From the IMG/VR virus record IMGVR_UViG_3300005077_000014, positions 21,375 to 85,374 of that record: a stretch of DNA of 64,000 nt, one strand, 5' to 3'. Below the pieces are notes generated by a model, which was given only the letters and a program-made list of their open reading frames with translations, made no database searches and was not told where the DNA came from. Numbering within the stretch: the stretch's first letter is position 1; every line of letters starts with the position of its first letter. The stretch is from a virus (Duplodnaviria; Caudoviricetes). Positions 50,686 to 58,680 of the stretch are shown here, piece by piece. The translations under genes were made by a program, and so were the position numbers.

Positions 50686-51111
50686 TCAATCCCTCAGTGA
50701 GAAACTGCATTCGCTGTCTTCGCAAAGCGTCCTGGACAAGTCCCATTCAAGAAGTTCGTCAATCGACTCGAAGACGGGAAGGCCAAGCTCGCTTGCGATT
50801 TCAAGCTCTTTTTTAGTTCCCTTGGATGTCTCCCAGCCTGGAACAAGCAAAACGCAATCGGAGACCTTGAGCCAAGCGATAGAGTATGCGTAATATTCCT
50901 CAAGCGTTGTTTCGCCAATCAAAGAGAAAAGGTAATCCAGCCAAGGCGCAAACGGCGCAAATCCATGTTTCAATACCTGGTGCGACACCCTTAACCCTCG
51001 TCTCATGTTGTCCAAAATGGTAATCACGTCAGGCCCAGAATACGGACCAGCCACATAAACCCGAACCATGTCGGTCGTGTCTTCTGTTGTAGTCAGGCTA
51101 TTCTCTTTCAA
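50686..51111 (-). CDS. DUF4406-like / nucleoside deoxyribosyltransferase-like protein
   Basis: VYVAGPYSG...SDCVLLVPGWETSKGTKKELEIA..LGLPVF. Confidence 0.75.
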   Translation of the reverse strand: MKENSLTTTEDTTDMVRVYVAGPYSGPDVITILDNMRRGLRVSHQVLKHGFAPFAPWLDYLFSLIGETTLEEYYAYSIAWLKVSDCVLLVPGWETSKGTKKELEIASELGLPVFESIDELLEWDLSRTLCEDSECSFSLRD

Positions 51112-53423
51112 AATAACGTCTCCTGTGATGCGTTTTTCTCTGCTTCGCGCAGATTTTTGACGGCCATATTGAAATAGCTCGGTTTGAGTTCGCCTCCAAT
51201 GAACTGGCGATTAAATTTCAAAGAAACGACGCCTTCGCTTCCTATCCCGGCGAAAGGTGAATAAACAATGTCTCCAGGGTTTGACCAGAGTTTGACGCAT
51301 CGCTCGATGACTGATAACTGCAAAGGGCACAAGTGGCGCTCGTCTTGTTCGTCGCGAGCACATGCCACATTGAGCACATCACTCTCTCTGATTCCATCTG
51401 GATTGTCTTCTGAGTGCATGAGCCAAACAGGAGAAGCCCATTTAATCCATTCGACGTTGCTTATCCAGCCACCTGATGCGCCTTTGATGTGGTCTGCTTT
51501 GCCAGCTCGGATGGGCTCTGGGTTGTCTCCTGGTTTGCGAAATTGCAAAACGTAATCGGCCATGGCCATGCGAGATTTCGATGAATCAGTGGCAAGCGTC
51601 TTGAAAAGTAAGCCTTGGTCTTTGGTTCGGAGAGCTTTTAATTGCGGATTCTTTTCAATACAGACTTCTCCATAATAAATCCATCCTGCGTCTTCCATTA
51701 TCTCGATGACTTTTCCTCGAAAGTCTTTCAGTCCGACATAGCCATCAATACCCTTGAATGCGATACCTTGTGTCAGGTGGACAGCACAGATACGACCCAG
51801 CTTAGTGACTCGTAACAGGTCCGGGACTAGAAAGCGGTAGTGGTCAAGCATTTCGTCAAAGTTTTTCGTGTTTCCCATGTCGTGGGGGCTGTTAGAATAA
51901 CTATACATGCCTGGAAATGGAGGACTATATACAATCAACCCCACACTTTCATCCTCGATATTCTTAACCGTCTTGACCGAATCCCCTAGATACAGCGTCC
52001 AGCCCTTGCCATCGGCCACGCTTTCCACGTATTCCATTTCTTCTCGTTTAGCTTCAACGGTTTGAAACTCTTTCATGTGATTCAGCATCTCCTTAAACAT
52101 TTGGTCTGCCTGTTGCTCTTTGCGTTTGATGTTTGCGATTACGGAGCCTTCGGCCTCGGAAGTGATAATGTGGACATGAACCTCGTGTTTTTGACCGAAT
52201 CGCCAACAGCGGCGAATTGCTTGGTAGAAATATTCAAAGGAATGGCTTAGGCCAAGAAAGATAACGTTGTGACATGATTGGAAATTCATCCCATGGCCAC
52301 AGATTGAACTTTTGCTAACGAGCGTCTTGATTTCCCCATTGGCGAAGCCAATCATGCTCGATTCTTTATGCTCTGGCGAGTCACTTCCTTTGACTTCAAC
52401 TGCTCCATCGATTGCTTTTGTTGCGGCGGCACTTTCGTCATTCAGGTCGCACCACACAAGCCATTGGTCGTGTGAAGTATCGTTATTGATAAGGTCTGCG
52501 CAGAGCTTTACACGGTCAACTAAACTGCTTCGTCTGGCCTCTCTTTGCTCTTGCAATCCCTTTGCCTCAAGTGTGAACAGCATCCCGTTGTCAAACAGCT
52601 GATTGTCTGTGACATGGTGGTGCATGTGCATGGCCGGCAAAATGAAATCATGGTCATCAAACCCAAGGTCAGATGGGAGCCTGAAGGCACGAGCCCATGA
52701 CGCCAGCCATTTCCAGAAATCTTTTTGAGCGTGGCCCTTGAGTCTCCACTTGTGCGATGTGGCCTTGAAATCTTGAATGAAGAAAATGGCGAGGATTTCT
52801 TTACCCTGCATAACGCCAAGAAACTCAGCGTGATTTATCAGTTCAGACGTGTCATTTGGCGACGGCGTGGCCGTGCAAGCAAGACGATACGGTATTGTTT
52901 GGGCGAAGGATGTTAAGGCAATACGGGTTTTTGCGCCAATTCCCTTTAAAATTGAACTTTCATCAAGCACTATGCCACTCAGCCCCTTCGCCTCAAAATG
53001 ATGCAGCATCTCGTAATTGGCGATATTGACTCCAGGCTGAATGTCGGCTTGTTTGCGGCAAATGTGGACATTAACGCCAAACTTCTTTCCCTCTTCTCTC
53101 GTCTGTTTCGAGACTGCCAGTGGCGCAAATATCAGGACGGGTTGACCTGTGTGGCGTGTAACATGGTCGGCCCATGTGAGCTGCATAAAAGTTTTTCCCG
53201 TTCCGGTGTCTCCAAATATTGCGGCCCTTCCTCGTTTCAACGCCCAACGGACAATGACTCTCTGGAAATCGAACAGAAGCGGGTTGATTGAGTCGATATC
53301 CACGTCAAAGCCAGTGTCTATGTCAACGATTCGCTTGGACTGAATGAAATCGGTATAAGACTTTGCGTGGTCTGTGGTCGTGGTCGTTTCGTTATTTATG
53401 TTAGTGTTGGTGCTTGTTTTCAT
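51108..53423 (-). CDS. SNF2-like helicase fused to N4C/N6A DNA methyltransferase
   Basis: GDTGTGKT, LDESS, CGHGMNFQ, QAIRRCWRFGQ; then YSPPF and YSPFAGIGSEG. Confidence 0.9.
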   Translation of the reverse strand: MKTSTNTNINNETTTTTDHAKSYTDFIQSKRIVDIDTGFDVDIDSINPLLFDFQRVIVRWALKRGRAAIFGDTGTGKTFMQLTWADHVTRHTGQPVLIFAPLAVSKQTREEGKKFGVNVHICRKQADIQPGVNIANYEMLHHFEAKGLSGIVLDESSILKGIGAKTRIALTSFAQTIPYRLACTATPSPNDTSELINHAEFLGVMQGKEILAIFFIQDFKATSHKWRLKGHAQKDFWKWLASWARAFRLPSDLGFDDHDFILPAMHMHHHVTDNQLFDNGMLFTLEAKGLQEQREARRSSLVDRVKLCADLINNDTSHDQWLVWCDLNDESAAATKAIDGAVEVKGSDSPEHKESSMIGFANGEIKTLVSKSSICGHGMNFQSCHNVIFLGLSHSFEYFYQAIRRCWRFGQKHEVHVHIITSEAEGSVIANIKRKEQQADQMFKEMLNHMKEFQTVEAKREEMEYVESVADGKGWTLYLGDSVKTVKNIEDESVGLIVYSPPFPGMYSYSNSPHDMGNTKNFDEMLDHYRFLVPDLLRVTKLGRICAVHLTQGIAFKGIDGYVGLKDFRGKVIEIMEDAGWIYYGEVCIEKNPQLKALRTKDQGLLFKTLATDSSKSRMAMADYVLQFRKPGDNPEPIRAGKADHIKGASGGWISNVEWIKWASPVWLMHSEDNPDGIRESDVLNVACARDEQDERHLCPLQLSVIERCVKLWSNPGDIVYSPFAGIGSEGVVSLKFNRQFIGGELKPSYFNMAVKNLREAEKNASQETLF

Positions 53424-53820
53424 TGCTCTCACTCTTATTTTTCCTGTCTTTGCCTTTAACCTTCTCGCTATTCTCTTCAACTCCTGGCGCAACATACGTT
53501 TTCGGGTTGCACTGCTTCATGATTTGACTGAGCTTTTCTTTGCCCATGCGCTCTTCAGCGAAATCGACAATGAATGCGATTGAGTCCACCATGCGTTGAG
53601 CTTCCTCACGACTCACCTTTGACCCGTCAGCAGTTGCAATCCAAATGTCGAACCTGTGCCTCAGCCAAGCGTAATATGGCCCATCAAGGCGACGATAAGT
53701 GATGCCGTCGCGGGTTATGTCACGAGCAAGAGACGGGTGCCGCAACATGAAGAAATGGTGGAGCGACGTGGACACGTAGAGACAATCGGGGTGCATATTT
53801 TGTTGAGTCGATGTTGTCAT
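53401..53820 (-). CDS. hypothetical protein downstream of the pentamer arrays
   Basis: Up to 139 aa; YRRLDGPYYAWLRHR; true start uncertain. Confidence 0.5.
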   Translation of the reverse strand: MTTSTQQNMHPDCLYVSTSLHHFFMLRHPSLARDITRDGITYRRLDGPYYAWLRHRFDIWIATADGSKVSREEAQRMVDSIAFIVDFAEERMGKEKLSQIMKQCNPKTYVAPGVEENSEKVKGKDRKNKSESNENKHQH

Positions 53821-54138
53821 GTCGTGTCTCGTCCCGTCGCGTCTTGTCTTGTCTCGTCCCGTCGGGTCGCGTCACATCAAATATCACTGTTACTTGTTTA
53901 ACTGTCTAAAAATGCCTTTATGTATTTTTGTCATGTCTTGTTCGGTCGAGTCTTGTCTTGTTCAGTCTTGTCAGGTCATGTCCCGTCGGGTCAAGTCTCG
54001 TCGCGTATCATCATCCAAGAATGCCATTATGTATTCTTGTCATGTCTCGTCTGGTCTTGTCGCGTCTCGTCAAGTCCTGTCTCGGCCAGTCATGTCAAGT
54101 CAGGTTGAGTCCCGTCTCGTCGAATCTCGTCATGTCTC
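53816..54138 (-). ncRNA. pentamer-coded RNA array block A (3 tracts: 53816-53880, 53930-54004, 54039-54138)
   Basis: (NN-GAC)n on - strand, 13/15/20 units, separated by AAGAATACATAA.GGCATTCTT-type hairpin linkers. Confidence 0.8.
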
Positions 54139-54146
54139 AATCAACT

Positions 54147-54734
54147 TCATTCTTTATCACTCTTATTCTTCTTAAACGCTTCCAACGTCTTCATCCACGG
54201 CAGCTTGTTTGCTGTTTCTGTGACTGTTGTCTCGATGCGATCTATCTGTTTTTTGCTTCCGATTTGGCGAATTGCGCCAAGGATGCTAAGGCCGACGTTG
54301 TGTTTGATTTGGCTGTCTGCGGGTAGGTCTTGAAAGCTTTTTACAGCCATCATTTCGTTTGCTGCTCGGGTGGCTTTTCTTCTGATTGCACGTATTGCGG
54401 GCTGTCCAAGCTCGGTTTTTTCTTTGTCGGTGAGACACTTAAGCCCTTTGTCGGGGTGCTCTGCTGTGGGCTTGAAAACGAGCTGATGTGTCTTGAGCGC
54501 TCGCTTTCTGGCTGCGTCCAGGCAATGACGGGCATCTTCCTGAACGTTTCGGGCAAGCATTTTGTTCAGCGTTGCATACGGGATAAACGCTCCAGGCGCT
54601 TGCGTTATTAGATACTCATATAAAATTTGAGTATCAATCGAGTGCTGAAAGAGATTGCGTTTGTCGGTGGTCTGCTCAGAGTCAGTGCGAGCTAGGCTCT
54701 CAATTGCTTTTTGTCTCTGTTCTTCTGGCGTCAT
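54147..54734 (-). CDS. array-embedded accessory protein, possible winged helix
   Basis: 195 aa between blocks A and B, AGGAG RBS; helix-strand-HTH-wing-like N-half, basic C-half. Confidence 0.65.
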   Translation of the reverse strand: MTPEEQRQKAIESLARTDSEQTTDKRNLFQHSIDTQILYEYLITQAPGAFIPYATLNKMLARNVQEDARHCLDAARKRALKTHQLVFKPTAEHPDKGLKCLTDKEKTELGQPAIRAIRRKATRAANEMMAVKSFQDLPADSQIKHNVGLSILGAIRQIGSKKQIDRIETTVTETANKLPWMKTLEAFKKNKSDKE

Positions 54735-54758
54735 GGTCGTCTCCTGTAGTGGTAAGTT

Positions 54759-55124
54759 GTCGGGTCATGTCCCGTCTTGTCCAGTCTGGTCATGTTCAGT
54801 CGAGTCGCGTCGAGTATCACTGTTGTTTGTCTAACCGTCTCAATATACCGTTGTGTTATGTATTCTTGCCTTGTCACGTCTTGTTCTGTCATGTTGTGTC
54901 CCGTCATGTCCCGTCCCGTCACGTATCATCATCTAAGAATGCCATTATGTATTCTTGTCTTGTCTTGTCTTGTCGAGTCATGTAGCGTCGGGTCCAGTCT
55001 CGTCTCGTCTTGTCAGGTATCATTGTTGAATATGCCTTTATGTATTCTTGTCTTGTCTTGTCTTGTCGGGTCATGTCCCGTCTTGTCCAGTCTCGTCATG
55101 TTCAGTCGAGTCGCGTCGAGTATC
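54759..55124 (-). ncRNA. pentamer-coded RNA array block B (4 tracts: 54759-54813, 54868-54922, 54957-55016, 55050-55119)
   Basis: 11/11/12/14 NN-GAC units; each tract opens with GATAC and three end in the hairpin linker. Confidence 0.85.
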
Positions 55125-55136
55125 ACTAATTTCTTC

Positions 55137-55700
55137 CTACTCTTCTGTCCATTGTATATCTTGGAGTGAGAAGCGCCCGAAATAGCCTCGGTTTCTCACT
55201 CTTAACGCTCCGATTCCGATGAATTTTCCAGCGGCGACGATATGTTCTTCAAAGACGCTGGGCGTGAGAATTTCGTCAACCACGAAGTATGTTACGGTTC
55301 CTTCCCATTGCTGGATGACGGGGAAGCATTTTGAGACTCTTTTGCCGTCTCCAGGGACGCCAGATGCCGGGACAAGCAACCACATGCCTTCCAGGTCGTC
55401 TTTGAGTTGCGGGAGCACAATGCCTTCCATGCAGAAAAAACCAGCCTCAAAATGTTTCGTGTAGGTAGATTTCCCTTTGCCGGGTATCTGCTTACCCATG
55501 AATTTTGCTGCTTCCATGACGGTATTTCTCAAAGCCATTGGTGGGATTGTGACTCTTCCATCCGGCAGAGAATGAAACTTCTCTTTCCAGGTCCGCTTCT
55601 CATAATCTTCAGCAATCTCTCTCTCAAGTTTCGGCGTTTGATGATAACGGCCCCAAGATAAAGGGCTGTCACTCTTCAGGGTTACTCTTGCTACTTTCAT
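55137..55700 (-). CDS. stand-alone Cas7/RAMP-like RNA-binding protein (Vipr-like)
   Basis: RAMP hallmarks: beta1 RVTLKSDSPL, IPPMALRNTVMEAA, thumb-like LVPASGVPGDGKRVSKCFP, WEGTVTY, glycine loop AGKFIGIGALR...GYFGRF. Confidence 0.75.
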   Translation of the reverse strand: MKVARVTLKSDSPLSWGRYHQTPKLEREIAEDYEKRTWKEKFHSLPDGRVTIPPMALRNTVMEAAKFMGKQIPGKGKSTYTKHFEAGFFCMEGIVLPQLKDDLEGMWLLVPASGVPGDGKRVSKCFPVIQQWEGTVTYFVVDEILTPSVFEEHIVAAGKFIGIGALRVRNRGYFGRFSLQDIQWTEE

Positions 55701-55743
55701 GATTCATCTTCCTTTCTTGTGTTGTGTTGTTTTGAATTGGGTT

Positions 55744-55972
55744 GTCTTGTCTCGTCTAGTCTCGTCCTGTCTCGTCTAGTCTCGTCCTGTCTCGTCTAGT
55801 CTCGTCCTGTCACGTCATGTCCAGTCAAGTCTAGTCCAGTCGGGGCTAGTCAAGTATCATCGTTATTCGACTAAGTATCTCAAGATGCCATTATATATTC
55901 TCGTCTTGTCGCGTCTGGTCCCGTCCCGTCTGGTCTTGTCTCGTTGTGTCTCGTCGGGTCAGGTCGCGTCAC
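55744..55972 (-). ncRNA. pentamer-coded RNA array block C (2 tracts: 55744-55853, 55903-55972)
   Basis: 22 and 14 NN-GAC units with a variant hairpin linker, between the RecD2 stop and the RAMP gene RBS. Confidence 0.8.
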
Positions 55973-55990: not shown

Positions 55991-58207
55991 CTACTCTCTC
56001 TTAATCAGCTCACTGAACCACGTTTTTCTCTTATCCACTTCCGTTTTACTGACGCAATTCCGGATTCCCCATGAATCGCCTAGCACAATGATTTTTTTCA
56101 TTGCCCGTGTTGCGCCGGTGTAAAAGATGCCTCTGTGGTGCATGAATGAGTGGTTTTTGTGGAGACAGAGCATAACGAAGGGGTATTGGCTGCCTTGTGT
56201 TTTGTGAACCGTCAGGCAGTATGCCAGTTCGATATTGATTCGTTTCTTTGTTGGTATGGCCGTGATTTCTTCGTAGTCTTCAAACTGGACAAGTAGAGTG
56301 CCGTTGTCTTCAATTGCGACAATCTCGCCAAGGGTGCCGTTCATGACATCGACTTCGTAATCGTTGTGGACTTGAATGATTTTGTCGTGGGGATAGAGCT
56401 TTGGCCGTTTCCCTTCTGGTGTGTCTTCGATGTCTACTCCCCATTTGACTCTTTGGGTGATTTTCTGAAGCGCAATGTTCAACGCATCGCAACCGAGAAT
56501 TCCTTTGCGTTGTGGCGATAGGATTTGAATGCCGGTGATAATGTTGGCGTTTGACCAGTTGACAAGAATTTGCTCATAGCCATTACATATTTCTTGTTTG
56601 CATTTTAGGGGGTCTGTCAGGTTGCTAACAACTTGCCACGGGATGTTGCCGTTTTCGGGCTTGCTTGTCTTTTCGAGTTTGCCTTCTAAAATTGCGCTGC
56701 AATTAGCTTTTAAAACGCCAGCTTGACGAACGATAGTGTCAAGGACTGTTGTTGGCACCACGTTTGATGCGATAAGGTCTCGTAACAGCGAGCCGGGGCC
56801 AACAGGTGGCAATTGATTATGGTCTCCGATAATTAAAACGCTGGTTGTGTCCCAATTAATGGCCCTGAAAAGATGATATGCGAGCAGATTATCAACCATT
56901 GAGAATTCGTCAATGATGACTAAATCACAAACTAACGGCTCGTATTCGTTGCGCTGAAAGCCGAATTGTGGGTTGTATTCAAGTAGTCTGTGAATAGTCT
57001 TTGCGTCATGGTTGGTTGTTTGTGCGAGTCTTCGAGCAGCTTTCCCTGTGGGAGCACACAAAGCAATGTTTTTGCCTATACCTTCCAAGTAATCAATGAT
57101 GCCCTTGACTAGATGTGTCTTGCCCGTTCCGGCGGCTCCAGTTGTGACCGAGACTTTGTATTTCAGCGCATTGTCAGTGGCGTTGCGCTGGTGTTCATTG
57201 AGAGAAGCCTGTCTCGGGGTGAGGGAGTCTTTATCGTTCCAATCAATAGGACTCGCTATGTGGCTTTGCTTCTTTGCAGCAAATGTCAAATTATCAGCTA
57301 GAAATCTTTCGATTCTTTCAATATGGGGCTCCATGATGACGGCAACACCAGCACTCGTCTTCCTTCCAACCAGGAATCCATCACCGATTAACAGGCCAAT
57401 TTTCTCTTCAATCTTCTGTTTGCTGTCCAGCCGGTCGAGACCCAGTAACCCATTTGCTTTTCTGATTAGCTCGCTTATTTCGATATACGTGCTTCCATCG
57501 TTGAGCACGTCTCGAACGCACCAGAGAATCCCTTGAGTGATTCTGCCCTCGTGGTCTTTCTTGATGCCCATCTTGAGCGCTATTTCATCGGCTTTCTTGA
57601 ATTGAACTCGTGGCACTTTGCCGATGATTTGATAGGGGTCTGATTGCAGGACGCCAAGGGTTGACTCGCCATATTCTTCGATTAGCTTGTCTATTTCGTT
57701 GATTGACAGGCCGAATTTAGCGAGCCACGTTATGAGCTTTGTATGATTGCGATGGTCTTTCCAGGTGGAAACGAGCAGAGCGAGTTGGTCGTCTGTGATA
57801 TTGACAAGAGCTTGAATCTTCTCCGGCTCTTTCATGATTACGTCATCAAAAGACGTGCCGAAAGCGTCAGCAATCTTTCTGGCTTTGCTTCTCCCTATCC
57901 CTTTAATCATCGTGTTTTTATCGAGCCAAACGGCGAGCCCTTCAGTGTCAAGTGTTTGGTCGTATTCACATGTGGCGGCCTGAAACTGCGTTCCATATTT
58001 CGGGTCTTTTGTCCATCGGCCCGTCATAATGACTCTGGCACCCTGGACAAGCATCACTGGCGCAGAGAATGAAACGAGTTGCACTCTGTCCTGAGACTCT
58101 AGTTTGCCAGCCGAAAACGTCGGGTAAGCGCAATGGAGACGTTCAACGGTTCCGCGGATAGTGTCGGCCATAATGTCGGCTTGTTTTTTAGTGGCTCGTT
58201 TGGTCAT
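55991..58207 (-). CDS. recD2: RecD2-like SF1B helicase
   Basis: N-terminal OB/HhH region (GIGRSKARKI), GAAGTGKT, IDEFSM, GDHNQLPPVGPG, AYCLTVHKTQGSQY, YTGATRA. Confidence 0.9.
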   Translation of the reverse strand: MTKRATKKQADIMADTIRGTVERLHCAYPTFSAGKLESQDRVQLVSFSAPVMLVQGARVIMTGRWTKDPKYGTQFQAATCEYDQTLDTEGLAVWLDKNTMIKGIGRSKARKIADAFGTSFDDVIMKEPEKIQALVNITDDQLALLVSTWKDHRNHTKLITWLAKFGLSINEIDKLIEEYGESTLGVLQSDPYQIIGKVPRVQFKKADEIALKMGIKKDHEGRITQGILWCVRDVLNDGSTYIEISELIRKANGLLGLDRLDSKQKIEEKIGLLIGDGFLVGRKTSAGVAVIMEPHIERIERFLADNLTFAAKKQSHIASPIDWNDKDSLTPRQASLNEHQRNATDNALKYKVSVTTGAAGTGKTHLVKGIIDYLEGIGKNIALCAPTGKAARRLAQTTNHDAKTIHRLLEYNPQFGFQRNEYEPLVCDLVIIDEFSMVDNLLAYHLFRAINWDTTSVLIIGDHNQLPPVGPGSLLRDLIASNVVPTTVLDTIVRQAGVLKANCSAILEGKLEKTSKPENGNIPWQVVSNLTDPLKCKQEICNGYEQILVNWSNANIITGIQILSPQRKGILGCDALNIALQKITQRVKWGVDIEDTPEGKRPKLYPHDKIIQVHNDYEVDVMNGTLGEIVAIEDNGTLLVQFEDYEEITAIPTKKRINIELAYCLTVHKTQGSQYPFVMLCLHKNHSFMHHRGIFYTGATRAMKKIIVLGDSWGIRNCVSKTEVDKRKTWFSELIKRE

Positions 58208-58680
58208 GGTATAACCGTTTCCTTTTCCACTTCCCCATCACTTGCACATTTCTTCCATGCCCATTCGAGCCATTTGTGGGCCATCCATTGCGCTATTTGG
58301 CGATTGCCCCACCAGTGAAACGAGATTCCATAATTCATTTCGAGCGATAGGATTGAGCCGATAATGCTGTTTGGATGGGCATCTGACGAATAGCGATGTT
58401 CCAAAATATCCTCAAGCTCGGCCTCAACCGCTACAATCTTAAATCGGTATGATTGCAGTCTGATAAGCTCTTTTGTGAAGCGTTTTCGTGAATGAATGAC
58501 AGTAGAAACGAGGTCGTCAATTGACTTTCTTTCGATACCTATCAGCGTTTCAAAGCCAAGCAGCGAATAGTCTGCGGCATGGAGACCGCATGAAACGGTC
58601 TCCACGTTGTCTGGAAAGGTCCATCCGAGCTGTTCGCGCGTGTCGATCACTACGCTATATGGCGCTTTCTTGGGTGCCAT
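58204..58680 (-). CDS. ERCC4/XPF-domain nuclease
   Basis: VIDTREQ...ADYS...IERKSIDDL motif. Confidence 0.85.
   Translation of the reverse strand: MAPKKAPYSVVIDTREQLGWTFPDNVETVSCGLHAADYSLLGFETLIGIERKSIDDLVSTVIHSRKRFTKELIRLQSYRFKIVAVEAELEDILEHRYSSDAHPNSIIGSILSLEMNYGISFHWWGNRQIAQWMAHKWLEWAWKKCASDGEVEKETVIP

What the first reader, a model, noticed from the sequence alone, without database searches (positions are those of the whole stretch)
53816..55972. Constant triplet is GAC (rarely AAC), not GGY: a possible new code variant
Seen: the 14 non-GAC triplets on - are AAC x8, GCC x2, GAT x2, GGC x1 and TAC x1, so the consensus is RAC with the final C almost invariant. Inference: if the described systems use GGY, this is an orthogonal subfamily with a changed triplet-binding pocket, useful as an independent programmable tool.
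Basis: partly seen in the sequence, partly recalled or inferred. Interest (0 to 1): 0.75.

Follow-up and report, generated by a model that had tools for sequence, protein, structure and literature searches.

The report
Phage VIPR locus with GAC-type guides
This 85-kb phage carries a VIPR system (a small Cas7-like protein plus guide RNAs written in five-base steps) whose fixed triplet is GAC instead of GGY; the variant is real and goes with changed RNA-contact residues, but 2026 preprints already report it, so this is a clean new example and not a new kind.

Summary
On the minus strand of 53814-55970 there are nine period-5 tracts with 130 units: GAC 118, AAC 8, GCC 2, TAC 1, GAT 1. Shuffles of the contig give at most 4 units.

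The tracts flank a 187-aa stand-alone Cas7-like protein. It is homologous to the experimentally studied SUSP1 Vipr (hhalign 98.4%). A conserved 195-aa partner gene lies next to it. This is a VIPR system.

- An October 2026 preprint already lists GAC/NN among non-canonical VIPR repeats. This scan has also met GAC-type VIPR on other DNA.
- GAC is not one orthogonal subfamily. In 134 related loci with callable arrays, the sense-strand triplet is GGC 67, GAC 26, CGC 21, CTC 9, GTC 4, GTT 3. The types are interleaved on the protein tree.
- The "changed pocket" idea is supported. G-loop residue 165 aligns with SUSP1 D177. It is Arg in 47/47 GGC-type proteins but only 3/24 GAC-type proteins.

Two guides spell conserved motifs of foreign genes with the skipped base at the wobble position: ELPGILNW of D5/P4-type primase-helicases (65 of 67 hits) and HINRDPSD of HNH endonucleases. 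A shuffled control gave 4 hits. The carrier phage has neither gene family.

The parts
55901..55970 (-). vrRNA tract 1, 14 GACNN units (one AAC)
   Evidence: sequence
55852..55900 (-). long tail after tract 1 (GAATATATAATGGCATCTT... ending GATGATAC); holds a promoter-like TTGAGA-16-GATGAT
55742..55851 (-). tract 2, 22 units, with an internal 20-nt repeat (3.7 copies). It has no hairpin tail and lies directly upstream of vipr
55137..55700 (-). vipr: 187-aa stand-alone Cas7-like RAMP
   Evidence: AF2 pLDDT 97.4; Foldseek top hits are type VII Cas7, Csm3 and gRAMP, E 1e-7; hhalign to SUSP1 Vipr 98.4%, E 5.7e-15
55048..55117 (-). tract 3, 14 units
55015..55047 (-). short tail after tract 3 (weak hairpin GAAUA/UAUUC, then GATAC)
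54955..55014 (-). tract 4, 12 units
54921..54954 (-). short tail after tract 4 (AAGAAU...AUUCUU hairpin, then GATGATGATAC)
54871..54920 (-). tract 5, 10 units (two AAC)
54812..54870 (-). long tail after tract 5
54757..54811 (-). tract 6, 11 units. Near copy of tract 3 (10 of 11 dinucleotides the same). It has no hairpin tail and lies directly upstream of vap
54147..54734 (-). vap: 195-aa accessory gene of this Vipr clade, function unknown
   Evidence: homologues in 97 related loci at E 1e-5 and 83 at E 1e-8, all on the vipr strand, 74 of them downstream of vipr. No Pfam or PHROG hit. Not homologous to SUSP1 Vap1. Weak MarR-like structural resemblance, TM about 0.4
54037..54136 (-). tract 7, 20 units. 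Units 3-10 read HINRDPSD on the antisense strand (HNH endonuclease core motif)
54003..54036 (-). short tail after tract 7 (AAGAAU...AUUCUU hairpin)
53928..54002 (-). tract 8, 15 units. Units 1-8 read E[L/F]PG[I/M]L[N/K][W/C], the ELPGILNW motif of D5/P4-type primase-helicases
53874..53927 (-). long tail after tract 8 (AAAAAU...AUUUUU stem, changed on both sides compared with AAGAAU/AUUCUU); holds a promoter-like TAGACA-17-GATATT
53814..53873 (-). tract 9, 12 units, all GAC. No hairpin tail. It runs into the start of a 139-aa ORF
53401..53820 (-). 139-aa ORF of unknown function. It is not a conserved neighbour, so whether it belongs to the system is uncertain
   Evidence: no homologue in 195 related loci

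Best explanation
This is a phage-encoded VIPR system (Viral Interference Programmable Repeat) of the GAC type.

Shown:
- A stand-alone Cas7-like Vipr gene and a clade-specific accessory gene lie on the minus strand.
- Nine same-strand tracts of 10-22 GACNN units are interleaved with these genes. Six tracts are followed by a conserved tail.

Inferred mechanism, by homology with SUSP1 and P. fulva VIPR:
- The tracts are transcribed with the genes and cut into vrRNAs.
- One Vipr protomer binds each unit and sequesters the fixed GAC with its G-loop, thumb and beta1-loop.
- The two variable bases of successive units pair with double-stranded DNA, skipping every third target base. The filament silences the target.

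The change of the middle base from G to A goes with loss of the G-loop arginine at residue 165. This position aligns with D177 of SUSP1 Vipr, a residue that contacts the triplet in the cryo-EM structure. In this phage residue 165 is Ala, and its neighbours are also changed: F166L, P168V, Y14L, Q16W, S17G. An Arg fits a carbonyl-bearing G or U at position 2 but not the amino group of A. This chemical reading is my inference.

The triplet is a labile specificity feature inside one Vipr clade (GGC, GAC, CGC, CTC, GTC, GTT). It probably lets co-infecting elements keep their Vipr proteins and guides from being used or hijacked by each other.

Likely natural targets are genes of competing mobile elements. 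One guide spells the ELPGILNW motif of D5/P4-type primase-helicases. Another spells the HINRDPSD core of HNH homing endonucleases. The skipped base falls on the wobble position in both.
For: Arrays.

Protein:
- The AF2 model has pLDDT 97.4.
- Foldseek top hits are Cas7, Csm3 and gRAMP.
- hhalign of the family profile against SUSP1 Vipr gives 98.4%, E 5.7e-15, over 168 columns. BLASTP also aligns the G-loop.
- 1121 homologues were found, and 951 representative proteins.

Family context:
- In 195 related loci the arrays sit next to the gene.
- The dominant triplet is always read on the gene's strand. No locus is dominated by GCC, GCG or GAG, the reverse complements of GGC, CGC and CTC.
- 67 loci carry canonical GGC, which ties the clade to published GGY VIPR.

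Pocket covariation:
- Residue 165 is Arg in 47/47 GGC, 17/18 CGC and 6/6 GTC or GTT proteins. It is Arg in only 3/24 GAC proteins; the others have F 12, S 4, V 3, A 1, T 1.
- Residue 15 is Ser in 47/47 GGC proteins and Gly in 11/24 GAC proteins.
- Of 15 edge-disjoint GAC versus non-GAC contrasts on the best tree, 12 lose Arg165 on the GAC side and none go the other way, p 0.0005.
- Tyr126 aligns with SUSP1 R138. It occurs only with C at triplet position 1: 8 contrasts for, 0 against, p 0.008.

Published support:
- GGY>GAY guides are dead in SUSP1.
- The contact residues H17, D177, R138, W178 and R179 are named in the cryo-EM paper.
- GAC/NN is listed as a non-canonical VIPR repeat.

Targets:
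- Units 1-8 of guide 8, with 1-nt skips, gave 67 IMG/VR hits. 65 lie in one sense-frame motif of D5_N/DUF5906/Pox_D5 proteins.
- Units 3-10 of guide 7 gave 26 hits. About 16-18 lie on the antisense of the HNH_3 core motif.
- The same units of guide 8 in shuffled order gave 4 scattered hits.
- There is no self-target at 1-nt skip.
- The carrier phage has no DUF5906 or HNH_3 gene.
Against: - No expression, processing or binding data exist for this locus or for any GAC-type system.
- The strand of the RNA is inferred, not measured. GAC reads GTC on the other strand.
- Three GAC-type proteins keep Arg165 (L065, L184, L097), so residue 165 is not the only determinant.
- With contrasts restricted to well-supported branches, only 4 remain (3 for, 0 against), which is not significant.
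- Both motif matches stop at exactly 8 units and do not extend into the rest of the guides.
- Two 10-unit patterns found nothing, and a third 8-unit pattern was inconclusive.
- The tail hairpins are thermodynamically weak, with z-scores not below shuffles except in one copy.
- The promoter and terminator scans are at chance level.
- The accessory protein is not homologous to SUSP1 Vap1, and its role is unknown.
Confidence: 0.85

Rival explanations
1. The RNAs are made from the plus strand, so the fixed triplet is GTC with a minor GTT (that is, GTY/NN). The hairpin element would then be a 5' handle and not a 3' tail.
For: GAC and GTC are reverse complements, so the array alone does not give its strand. 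The eight AAC exceptions would read GTT, giving a pyrimidine at position 3 as in GGY. Sense-strand GTC and GTT loci do exist in the family. DNA hairpins are strand-symmetric.
Against: - In every related locus whose triplet is not ambiguous in this way (67 GGC, 21 CGC, 9 CTC), the array reads in the sense of vipr, as in SUSP1.
- All genes around the window's arrays are on the minus strand.
- The conserved element follows each tract on the minus strand, as published tails do.
- Sense GTC and GTT loci keep Arg165 while GAC loci lose it. The two labels therefore go with different proteins and are not one type seen from two sides.
Confidence: 0.06
2. GAC-type VIPR is a single, anciently separated orthogonal subfamily. 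The scattered tree picture would then be an artefact of a poorly resolved tree or of recombination.
For: Only 34 of 152 inner branches of the tree are well supported. In the smaller 81-row tree, one origin of GAC was not excluded by the well-supported branches.
Against: - In the 155-protein tree, well-supported branches alone force at least 7 changes of the GAC label.
- GAC-type proteins carry at least three different pocket versions: S15G+R165F, Y14[I/L]+Q16[F/W]+R165[S/A], and R165V. This speaks for repeated, convergent changes.
- The nearest relatives of many GAC proteins are GGC or CGC proteins at short distances of 0.26-0.45.
Confidence: 0.07
3. The period-5 tracts act at the DNA level (protein-binding iterons, bent DNA or an origin) and are not guides. 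Alternatively, they are decoy guides for another element's protein.
For: Three tracts (2, 6, 9) lack the hairpin tail and sit in 5' leaders of genes. Tract 2 is internally repetitive. Decoy 'solo' vrRNAs are described in satellites of SUSP1.
Against: - The arrays co-occur with a Vipr homologue in 134 loci, and the triplet identity tracks that protein's G-loop.
- The variable dinucleotides of two tracts spell conserved foreign protein motifs in wobble-skipping phase, far above a shuffled control.
- There are no GAC tracts elsewhere in the contig.
Confidence: 0.02

Closest known systems
VIPR systems, reference type II of Escherichia phage SUSP1 and the Pseudomonas fulva prophage (bioRxiv 10.64898/2026.04.26.720920 and 10.64898/2026.04.26.720927)
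   Same: - Phage-borne.
- A lone Cas7-like Vipr of about 190 aa, homologous over its full length (hhalign 98.4%).
- The layout is array, vipr, accessory gene, arrays, all on one strand.
- 10-22 five-base units, each with three fixed and two hypervariable bases, followed by a conserved tail.
- Guides appear to read coding motifs with the skipped base at the wobble position.
   Different: - The fixed triplet is GAC, not GGY. The changed base is the second G, the one position that stays G in all repeat classes named in the discovery paper's Methods (YNNGG, NNNGG, YNNNG, NNNNG).
- The contact residues differ: SUSP1 R138, D177 and W178 align with F126, A165 and L166 here.
- The tail is a short A/U-rich hairpin, not the SUSP1 pseudoknot tail.
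- The accessory protein is unrelated to Vap1.
- Three tracts lack the hairpin tail.
Non-canonical VIPR arrays found with a genomic language model (bioRxiv 10.64898/2026.10.21.760802, section 2.3 and fig. S10)
   Same: The preprint names GAC/NN explicitly as a fixed-triplet variant next to Vipr-like folds. It counts 21 clusters with 6,318 sequences.
   Different: That report is computational only. In the text I could read, it gives no residue-level account of the pocket, no tree mapping and no targets. I could not check whether this locus is among its clusters, because the figures and tables are not held.
Cas7 backbone subunits of class 1 CRISPR effectors (type VII Cas7 8z4j, Csm3, gRAMP)
   Same: Same RRM, G-loop and thumb fold (Foldseek E 1e-7 to 1e-4, TM 0.5-0.6). 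One protomer binds per fixed RNA interval.
   Different: - There is no CRISPR array, no cas genes and no large or small subunits.
- The period is 5 nt, with three bases hidden, not 6 nt with one flipped base.
- The guide is a tandem repeat, not a spacer.

Membership tests
VIPR system | Stand-alone RAMP (Cas7-like RRM core, glycine-rich loop, thumb) homologous to Vipr | tested here: met
   AF2 pLDDT 97.4. Foldseek hits Cas7, Csm3 and gRAMP. hhalign to SUSP1 Vipr gives 98.4%, E 5.7e-15. The G-loop motif GxG..R.R...GRF is aligned.
VIPR system | Non-CRISPR, minimal locus: vipr plus an accessory (vap) gene, carried by a phage | tested here: met
   The record is an 85-kb virus record, 92% complete. 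The 195-aa neighbour is conserved on the vipr strand in 83 loci at E 1e-8 (97 at E 1e-5), downstream of vipr in 74 of them. There is no CRISPR repeat or Rfam hit.
VIPR system | Tandem 5-nt repeats with a fixed trinucleotide alternating with hypervariable NN, about 9-16 units, on the vipr strand | tested here: met
   Nine tracts of 10-22 units, with the NN positions near-uniform. Sense orientation is inferred from 97 unambiguous related loci.
VIPR system | The fixed trinucleotide is GGY (canonical definition) | tested here: not met
   GAC in 118 of 130 units and no GGY. The discovery paper allows 'a related consensus', and a later preprint lists GAC/NN. This therefore excludes the canonical subtype, not the family.
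VIPR system | Conserved 3' tail after the repeat tract | tested here: met
   Six of nine tracts are followed by GAATACATAA(T/A)GGCAT...GATAC, with a short stem that changes on both sides in one copy. Three tracts lack it. The fold energies are weak.
VIPR system | Targets read by NN pairs with one skipped base (1-nt skip rule) | tested here: inconclusive
   Two 8-unit windows spell conserved foreign protein motifs in wobble-skipping phase: 65 of 67 hits, and about 17 of 26 hits. A shuffled control gave 4 hits. The matches do not extend beyond the 8 units. Other skip lengths could not be scanned in the collection.
VIPR system | vrRNAs are expressed, processed and bound by Vipr; DNA silencing | not testable with these tools
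   Needs small-RNA sequencing, RNP purification and reporter assays.
VIPR type II (SUSP1-like) | Accessory gene vap1 | tested here: not met
   BLASTP E 50. hhalign of a 26-sequence vap profile against SUSP1 Vap1 gives 7.8%. The type assignment among I-VII cannot be made, because the type tables are not held.

The most novel reading that the evidence does not exclude
The fixed triplet of VIPR guides is a fast-evolving 'address label'. Inside a single Vipr clade it has switched repeatedly among GGC, GAC, CGC, CTC, GTC and GTT. Each switch is matched by one or two substitutions at G-loop residue 165 (with residue 15) and thumb residue 126. The switching is driven by the need to escape guide hijacking and decoy guides from co-infecting elements. 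If so, triplet specificity could be reprogrammed with single substitutions, giving a set of mutually orthogonal VIPR tools. The window's rare pocket version (SPLSWGR plus GALRVR) would be one more orthogonal channel.
Probability: 0.4. Interest if true: 0.65.

Novelty: new member of a known kind. Interest (0 to 1): 0.4.

Why it matters
The locus adds no new kind of system. It is useful in three ways:
- It is a clean, complete GAC-type VIPR with nine guides.
- The family comparison turns 'GAC versus GGY' into a testable residue-level hypothesis. Arg165, aligned with SUSP1 D177, would gate G or U against A at triplet position 2. Phe or Tyr at residue 126, aligned with SUSP1 R138, would go with G or C at position 1. 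If this holds, it gives a rational route to orthogonal VIPR channels.
- The decoded guides suggest what such phages fight: primase-helicases of satellites or rival phages, and HNH homing endonucleases. The guides would reach them through protein motifs, read independently of synonymous codon changes.

Tried and rejected
- A single-sequence AF2 fold was useless, pLDDT 32. I repeated it with an alignment.
- tblastn and megablast against GenBank phages found nothing, even at E 10.
- The wide alignment A1 was too diverse for the search for related loci.
- 10-unit exact patterns of guides 1 and 3 gave 0 hits.
- The tail-plus-last-unit pattern gave 0 hits in IMG/VR, so no close relative or solo guide with this tail was found.
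- Guide 3, units 1-8, gave 10 hits with loose clustering on P[F/L][Q/H]S[I/M][Q/H][D/E]A. This is inconclusive against a control of 4 hits.
- An all-against-all scan of 167 of the 270 unique guides from related loci against those loci, at skips 0-3, gave only a handful of low-complexity matches and no test of the rule.
- Mutual-information ranking of alignment columns was dominated by high-entropy columns. I replaced it with inspection of the segments that align with published contact residues.
- Sigma-70 promoter and terminator scans were at chance level.
- Rfam gave no hit.
- Profile searches of the accessory protein against the PDB gave only E>0.1.
Full report
**1. Observation**

The minus strand of window 53814-55970 holds nine tracts of strictly phased five-base units. 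The tracts have 14, 22, 14, 12, 10, 11, 20, 15 and 12 units. Of the 130 units, 118 begin with GAC, 8 with AAC, 2 with GCC, 1 with TAC and 1 with GAT.

The third base is C in 129 of 130 units. In the whole 85,374-bp contig such runs occur only here and only in this orientation. 200 shuffles of the contig gave at most 4 units in runs.

**2. What it is**

Two minus-strand genes lie between the tracts: 55137-55700 (187 aa) and 54147-54734 (195 aa).

*The 187-aa protein:*
- It has no Pfam hit and only a weak PHROG hit.
- It belongs to a large family: 1121 proteins at E<=1e-3 and 951 representative proteins.
- With an alignment, AlphaFold gives a confident model, pLDDT 97.4. Its best PDB matches are Cas7 of type VII CRISPR, Csm3 and gRAMP, E 1e-7 to 1e-4.
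- A profile of the family aligns with the experimentally studied Vipr of Escherichia phage SUSP1 (KT454805, 28474-29061, equal to YP_009199429) over 168 columns, with hhalign probability 98.4% and E 5.7e-15.

*The 195-aa protein:*
- It is a conserved same-strand neighbour of vipr in 83-97 related loci, depending on the cut-off. It lies downstream of vipr in 74 of the 83.
- It is unrelated to SUSP1 Vap1.
- Its closest look-alikes are viral hypothetical proteins. There is only a weak MarR-like structural resemblance.

*The tails:* six tracts are followed by a conserved tail, GAATACATAA(T/A)GGCAT..., with a short A/U-rich stem and ending in GATAC. In one copy the stem is changed on both sides, AAAAAU/AUUUUU against AAGAAU/AUUCUU. 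Tracts 2, 6 and 9 lack this tail and sit directly upstream of the three ORFs.

This is the anatomy of a VIPR system (bioRxiv 10.64898/2026.04.26.720920), and the layout matches SUSP1.

**3. Strand**

GAC reads GTC on the other strand, so the strand must be argued.
- In 195 related loci from IMG/VR, GTDB genomes and metagenomes, the arrays hug the vipr gene.
- The dominant triplet read on the gene's strand is GGC in 67 loci, GAC in 26, CGC in 21, CTC in 9, GTC in 4 and GTT in 3.
- No locus is dominated by GCC, GCG or GAG. The arrays of this clade are therefore always co-oriented with vipr, as in SUSP1.
- Sense-GTC and GTT loci keep Arg165, whereas GAC loci lose it. GAC and GTC are therefore different types, not one type seen from two sides.
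- Direct proof needs RNA sequencing.

**4. Is GAC new?**

No.
- The discovery paper says all seven types use GGY/NN 'or a related consensus'. Its Methods list NNNGG, YNNNG and NNNNG as alternatives. In all of these the second G is kept, and GAC changes exactly that base.
- bioRxiv 10.64898/2026.10.21.760802 (October 2026) reports 21 clusters with 6,318 sequences whose 5-mers are non-canonical, 'e.g. GAC/NN or CAC/NN', next to Vipr-like folds.
- This scan has also reported GAC or GAY-type VIPR on several other genomes.

**5. Is it one orthogonal subfamily with a changed pocket?**

*Subfamily: no.* On a tree of 155 distinct proteins the GAC label needs 17 changes. Well-supported branches force at least 7 of them. 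GAC proteins often have GGC or CGC proteins as nearest neighbours. The window's protein is a rather isolated lineage: its best identity to any relative is 57%, and in the 81-row tree its sister is L022, also GAC.

*Changed pocket: yes, by covariation.* The cryo-EM paper names the SUSP1 residues that hold the triplet: H17 and D177 for G1, R138 and W178 for G2, and R179 with helix 1 for Y3. In the alignment these correspond to window positions as follows:

| SUSP1 residue | Window position |
|---|---|
| next to H17 | W16/G17 |
| D177 | A165 |
| R138 | F126 |
| W178 | L166 |
| R179 | R167 |
| E71/M72 | M55/A56 |

Findings at these positions:
- The Y3 residues are conserved, in line with the retained C.
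- Residue 165 is Arg in 47/47 GGC, 17/18 CGC and 6/6 GTC or GTT proteins. It is Arg in only 3/24 GAC proteins; the others have F 12, S 4, V 3, A 1, T 1.
- Residue 15 is Ser in 47/47 GGC proteins and Gly in 11/24 GAC proteins.
- In 15 edge-disjoint GAC versus non-GAC contrasts on the best tree, Arg165 is lost on the GAC side in 12 and never the other way (p 0.0005).
- Tyr126 goes only with C at triplet position 1: 8 contrasts for, 0 against, p 0.008.
- With well-supported branches only, 4 contrasts remain (3 for, 0 against), which is not significant.
- GAC proteins use at least three pocket versions. The window shares the rarer one (SP[L/I]x[W/F]GR plus G[A/S]LRVR) with L022 and L091; L195 has the same beta1-loop version but an SFRPQ G-loop.
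- Arg tolerating G or U (carbonyl) but not A (amino) at position 2 is my chemical inference.
- SUSP1 guides mutated from GGY to GAY no longer silence, so cross-talk between GGY-type proteins and GAC guides is unlikely in at least that direction.

**6. Targets**

- No guide matches the carrier genome at a 1-nt skip.
- Units 1-8 of guide 8 (tract 54002-53928), written NNx, gave 67 exact IMG/VR hits. 65 lie in the sense frame of one motif, ELPGILNW, with the skipped base at the wobble position. An example protein carries the NrS-1 HBD, D5_N, DUF5906 and Pox_D5 domains, which makes it a primase-helicase.
- Units 3-10 of guide 7 (tract 54136-54037) gave 26 hits. About 16-18 lie on the antisense of DHINRDPSDNR, the HNH_3 core motif.
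- The units of guide 8 in shuffled order gave 4 scattered hits.
- The carrier phage has neither a DUF5906 nor an HNH_3 gene.
- Weak points: the matches end at the 8 units tested, two 10-unit patterns found nothing, a third 8-unit pattern was inconclusive, and other skip lengths could not be scanned.
- I read this as good but not decisive support that GAC-type guides follow the published wobble-skipping logic and aim at rival mobile elements.

**7. Verdict**

This is a genuine VIPR locus of the GAC type. The variant is already in the literature (computationally) and has been seen before in this scan. The locus is a new member of a known kind.

The added value here is threefold: the residue-level link between triplet and pocket, the evidence that the triplet switches repeatedly inside one clade, and two decoded candidate targets.

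Noticed in passing
window 55856-55883, 53880-53908 and about 54815-54845 (minus strand): The three long tails (after tracts 1, 5 and 8) contain a promoter-like T(T/A)GA(G/C)A, 16-17 nt, then GAT(G/A)(A/T)T. Two of these were called by the consensus scan. Each lies just upstream of a tail-less tract that leads into an ORF (vipr, vap, orf139). The tail-less tracts may be 5' leaders of the mRNAs. The overall number of promoter hits in the scan is at chance level.
   Followed up: partly
window 54757-54811 versus 55048-55117: Tract 6 is a near copy of the first 11 units of tract 3. 10 of 11 dinucleotides are the same; unit 5 is CA against GA. Tract 2 contains a 20-nt unit (AG GA TA GA) repeated about 3.7 times. 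Guides seem to arise by in-register duplication and slippage.
   Followed up: partly
window 54037-54136 and 53928-54002: The 8-unit motif matches are bounded by units with off-consensus triplets. In tract 7 these are GAT at unit 3 and GCC at unit 11. In tract 8 it is AAC at unit 9. Degenerate triplets might mark functional segment borders inside long tracts. This may also be coincidence, since AAC also occurs inside the tract 7 match.
   Followed up: no
related loci L071/L078, L073, L074, L080: CGC-type relatives carry very large arrays, up to 108 units in 8 tracts upstream of vipr. CGC and CTC types (C at triplet position 1) carry Tyr, not Phe, at the thumb residue that aligns with SUSP1 R138.
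   Followed up: partly
related loci L057, L060 (also L051, L067): A small clade with sense-strand GTC arrays has its own set of substitutions: K58A, N59V, H83N, E85D, N171C. This may be a further pocket solution.
   Followed up: no
window 55991-58680 and 50686-53495: The VIPR locus is embedded in a minus-strand DNA-metabolism module: an ERCC4-type nuclease, a RecD2-like helicase, an SNF2-helicase/N6_N4 DNA methylase fusion of 795 aa, and a nucleoside 2-deoxyribosyltransferase-like protein. None of these is a conserved neighbour of vipr in related loci.
   Followed up: partly
loci L082-L116 (genome contigs): Homologues of this Vipr clade occur in MAGs of many phyla (Cyanobacteria, Pseudomonadota, Planctomycetota, Acidobacteriota, Chloroflexota, Saccharibacteria, one Nanoarchaeia bin). 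They are presumably on prophages or binned phage contigs. The host of the window's phage remains unknown.
   Followed up: no
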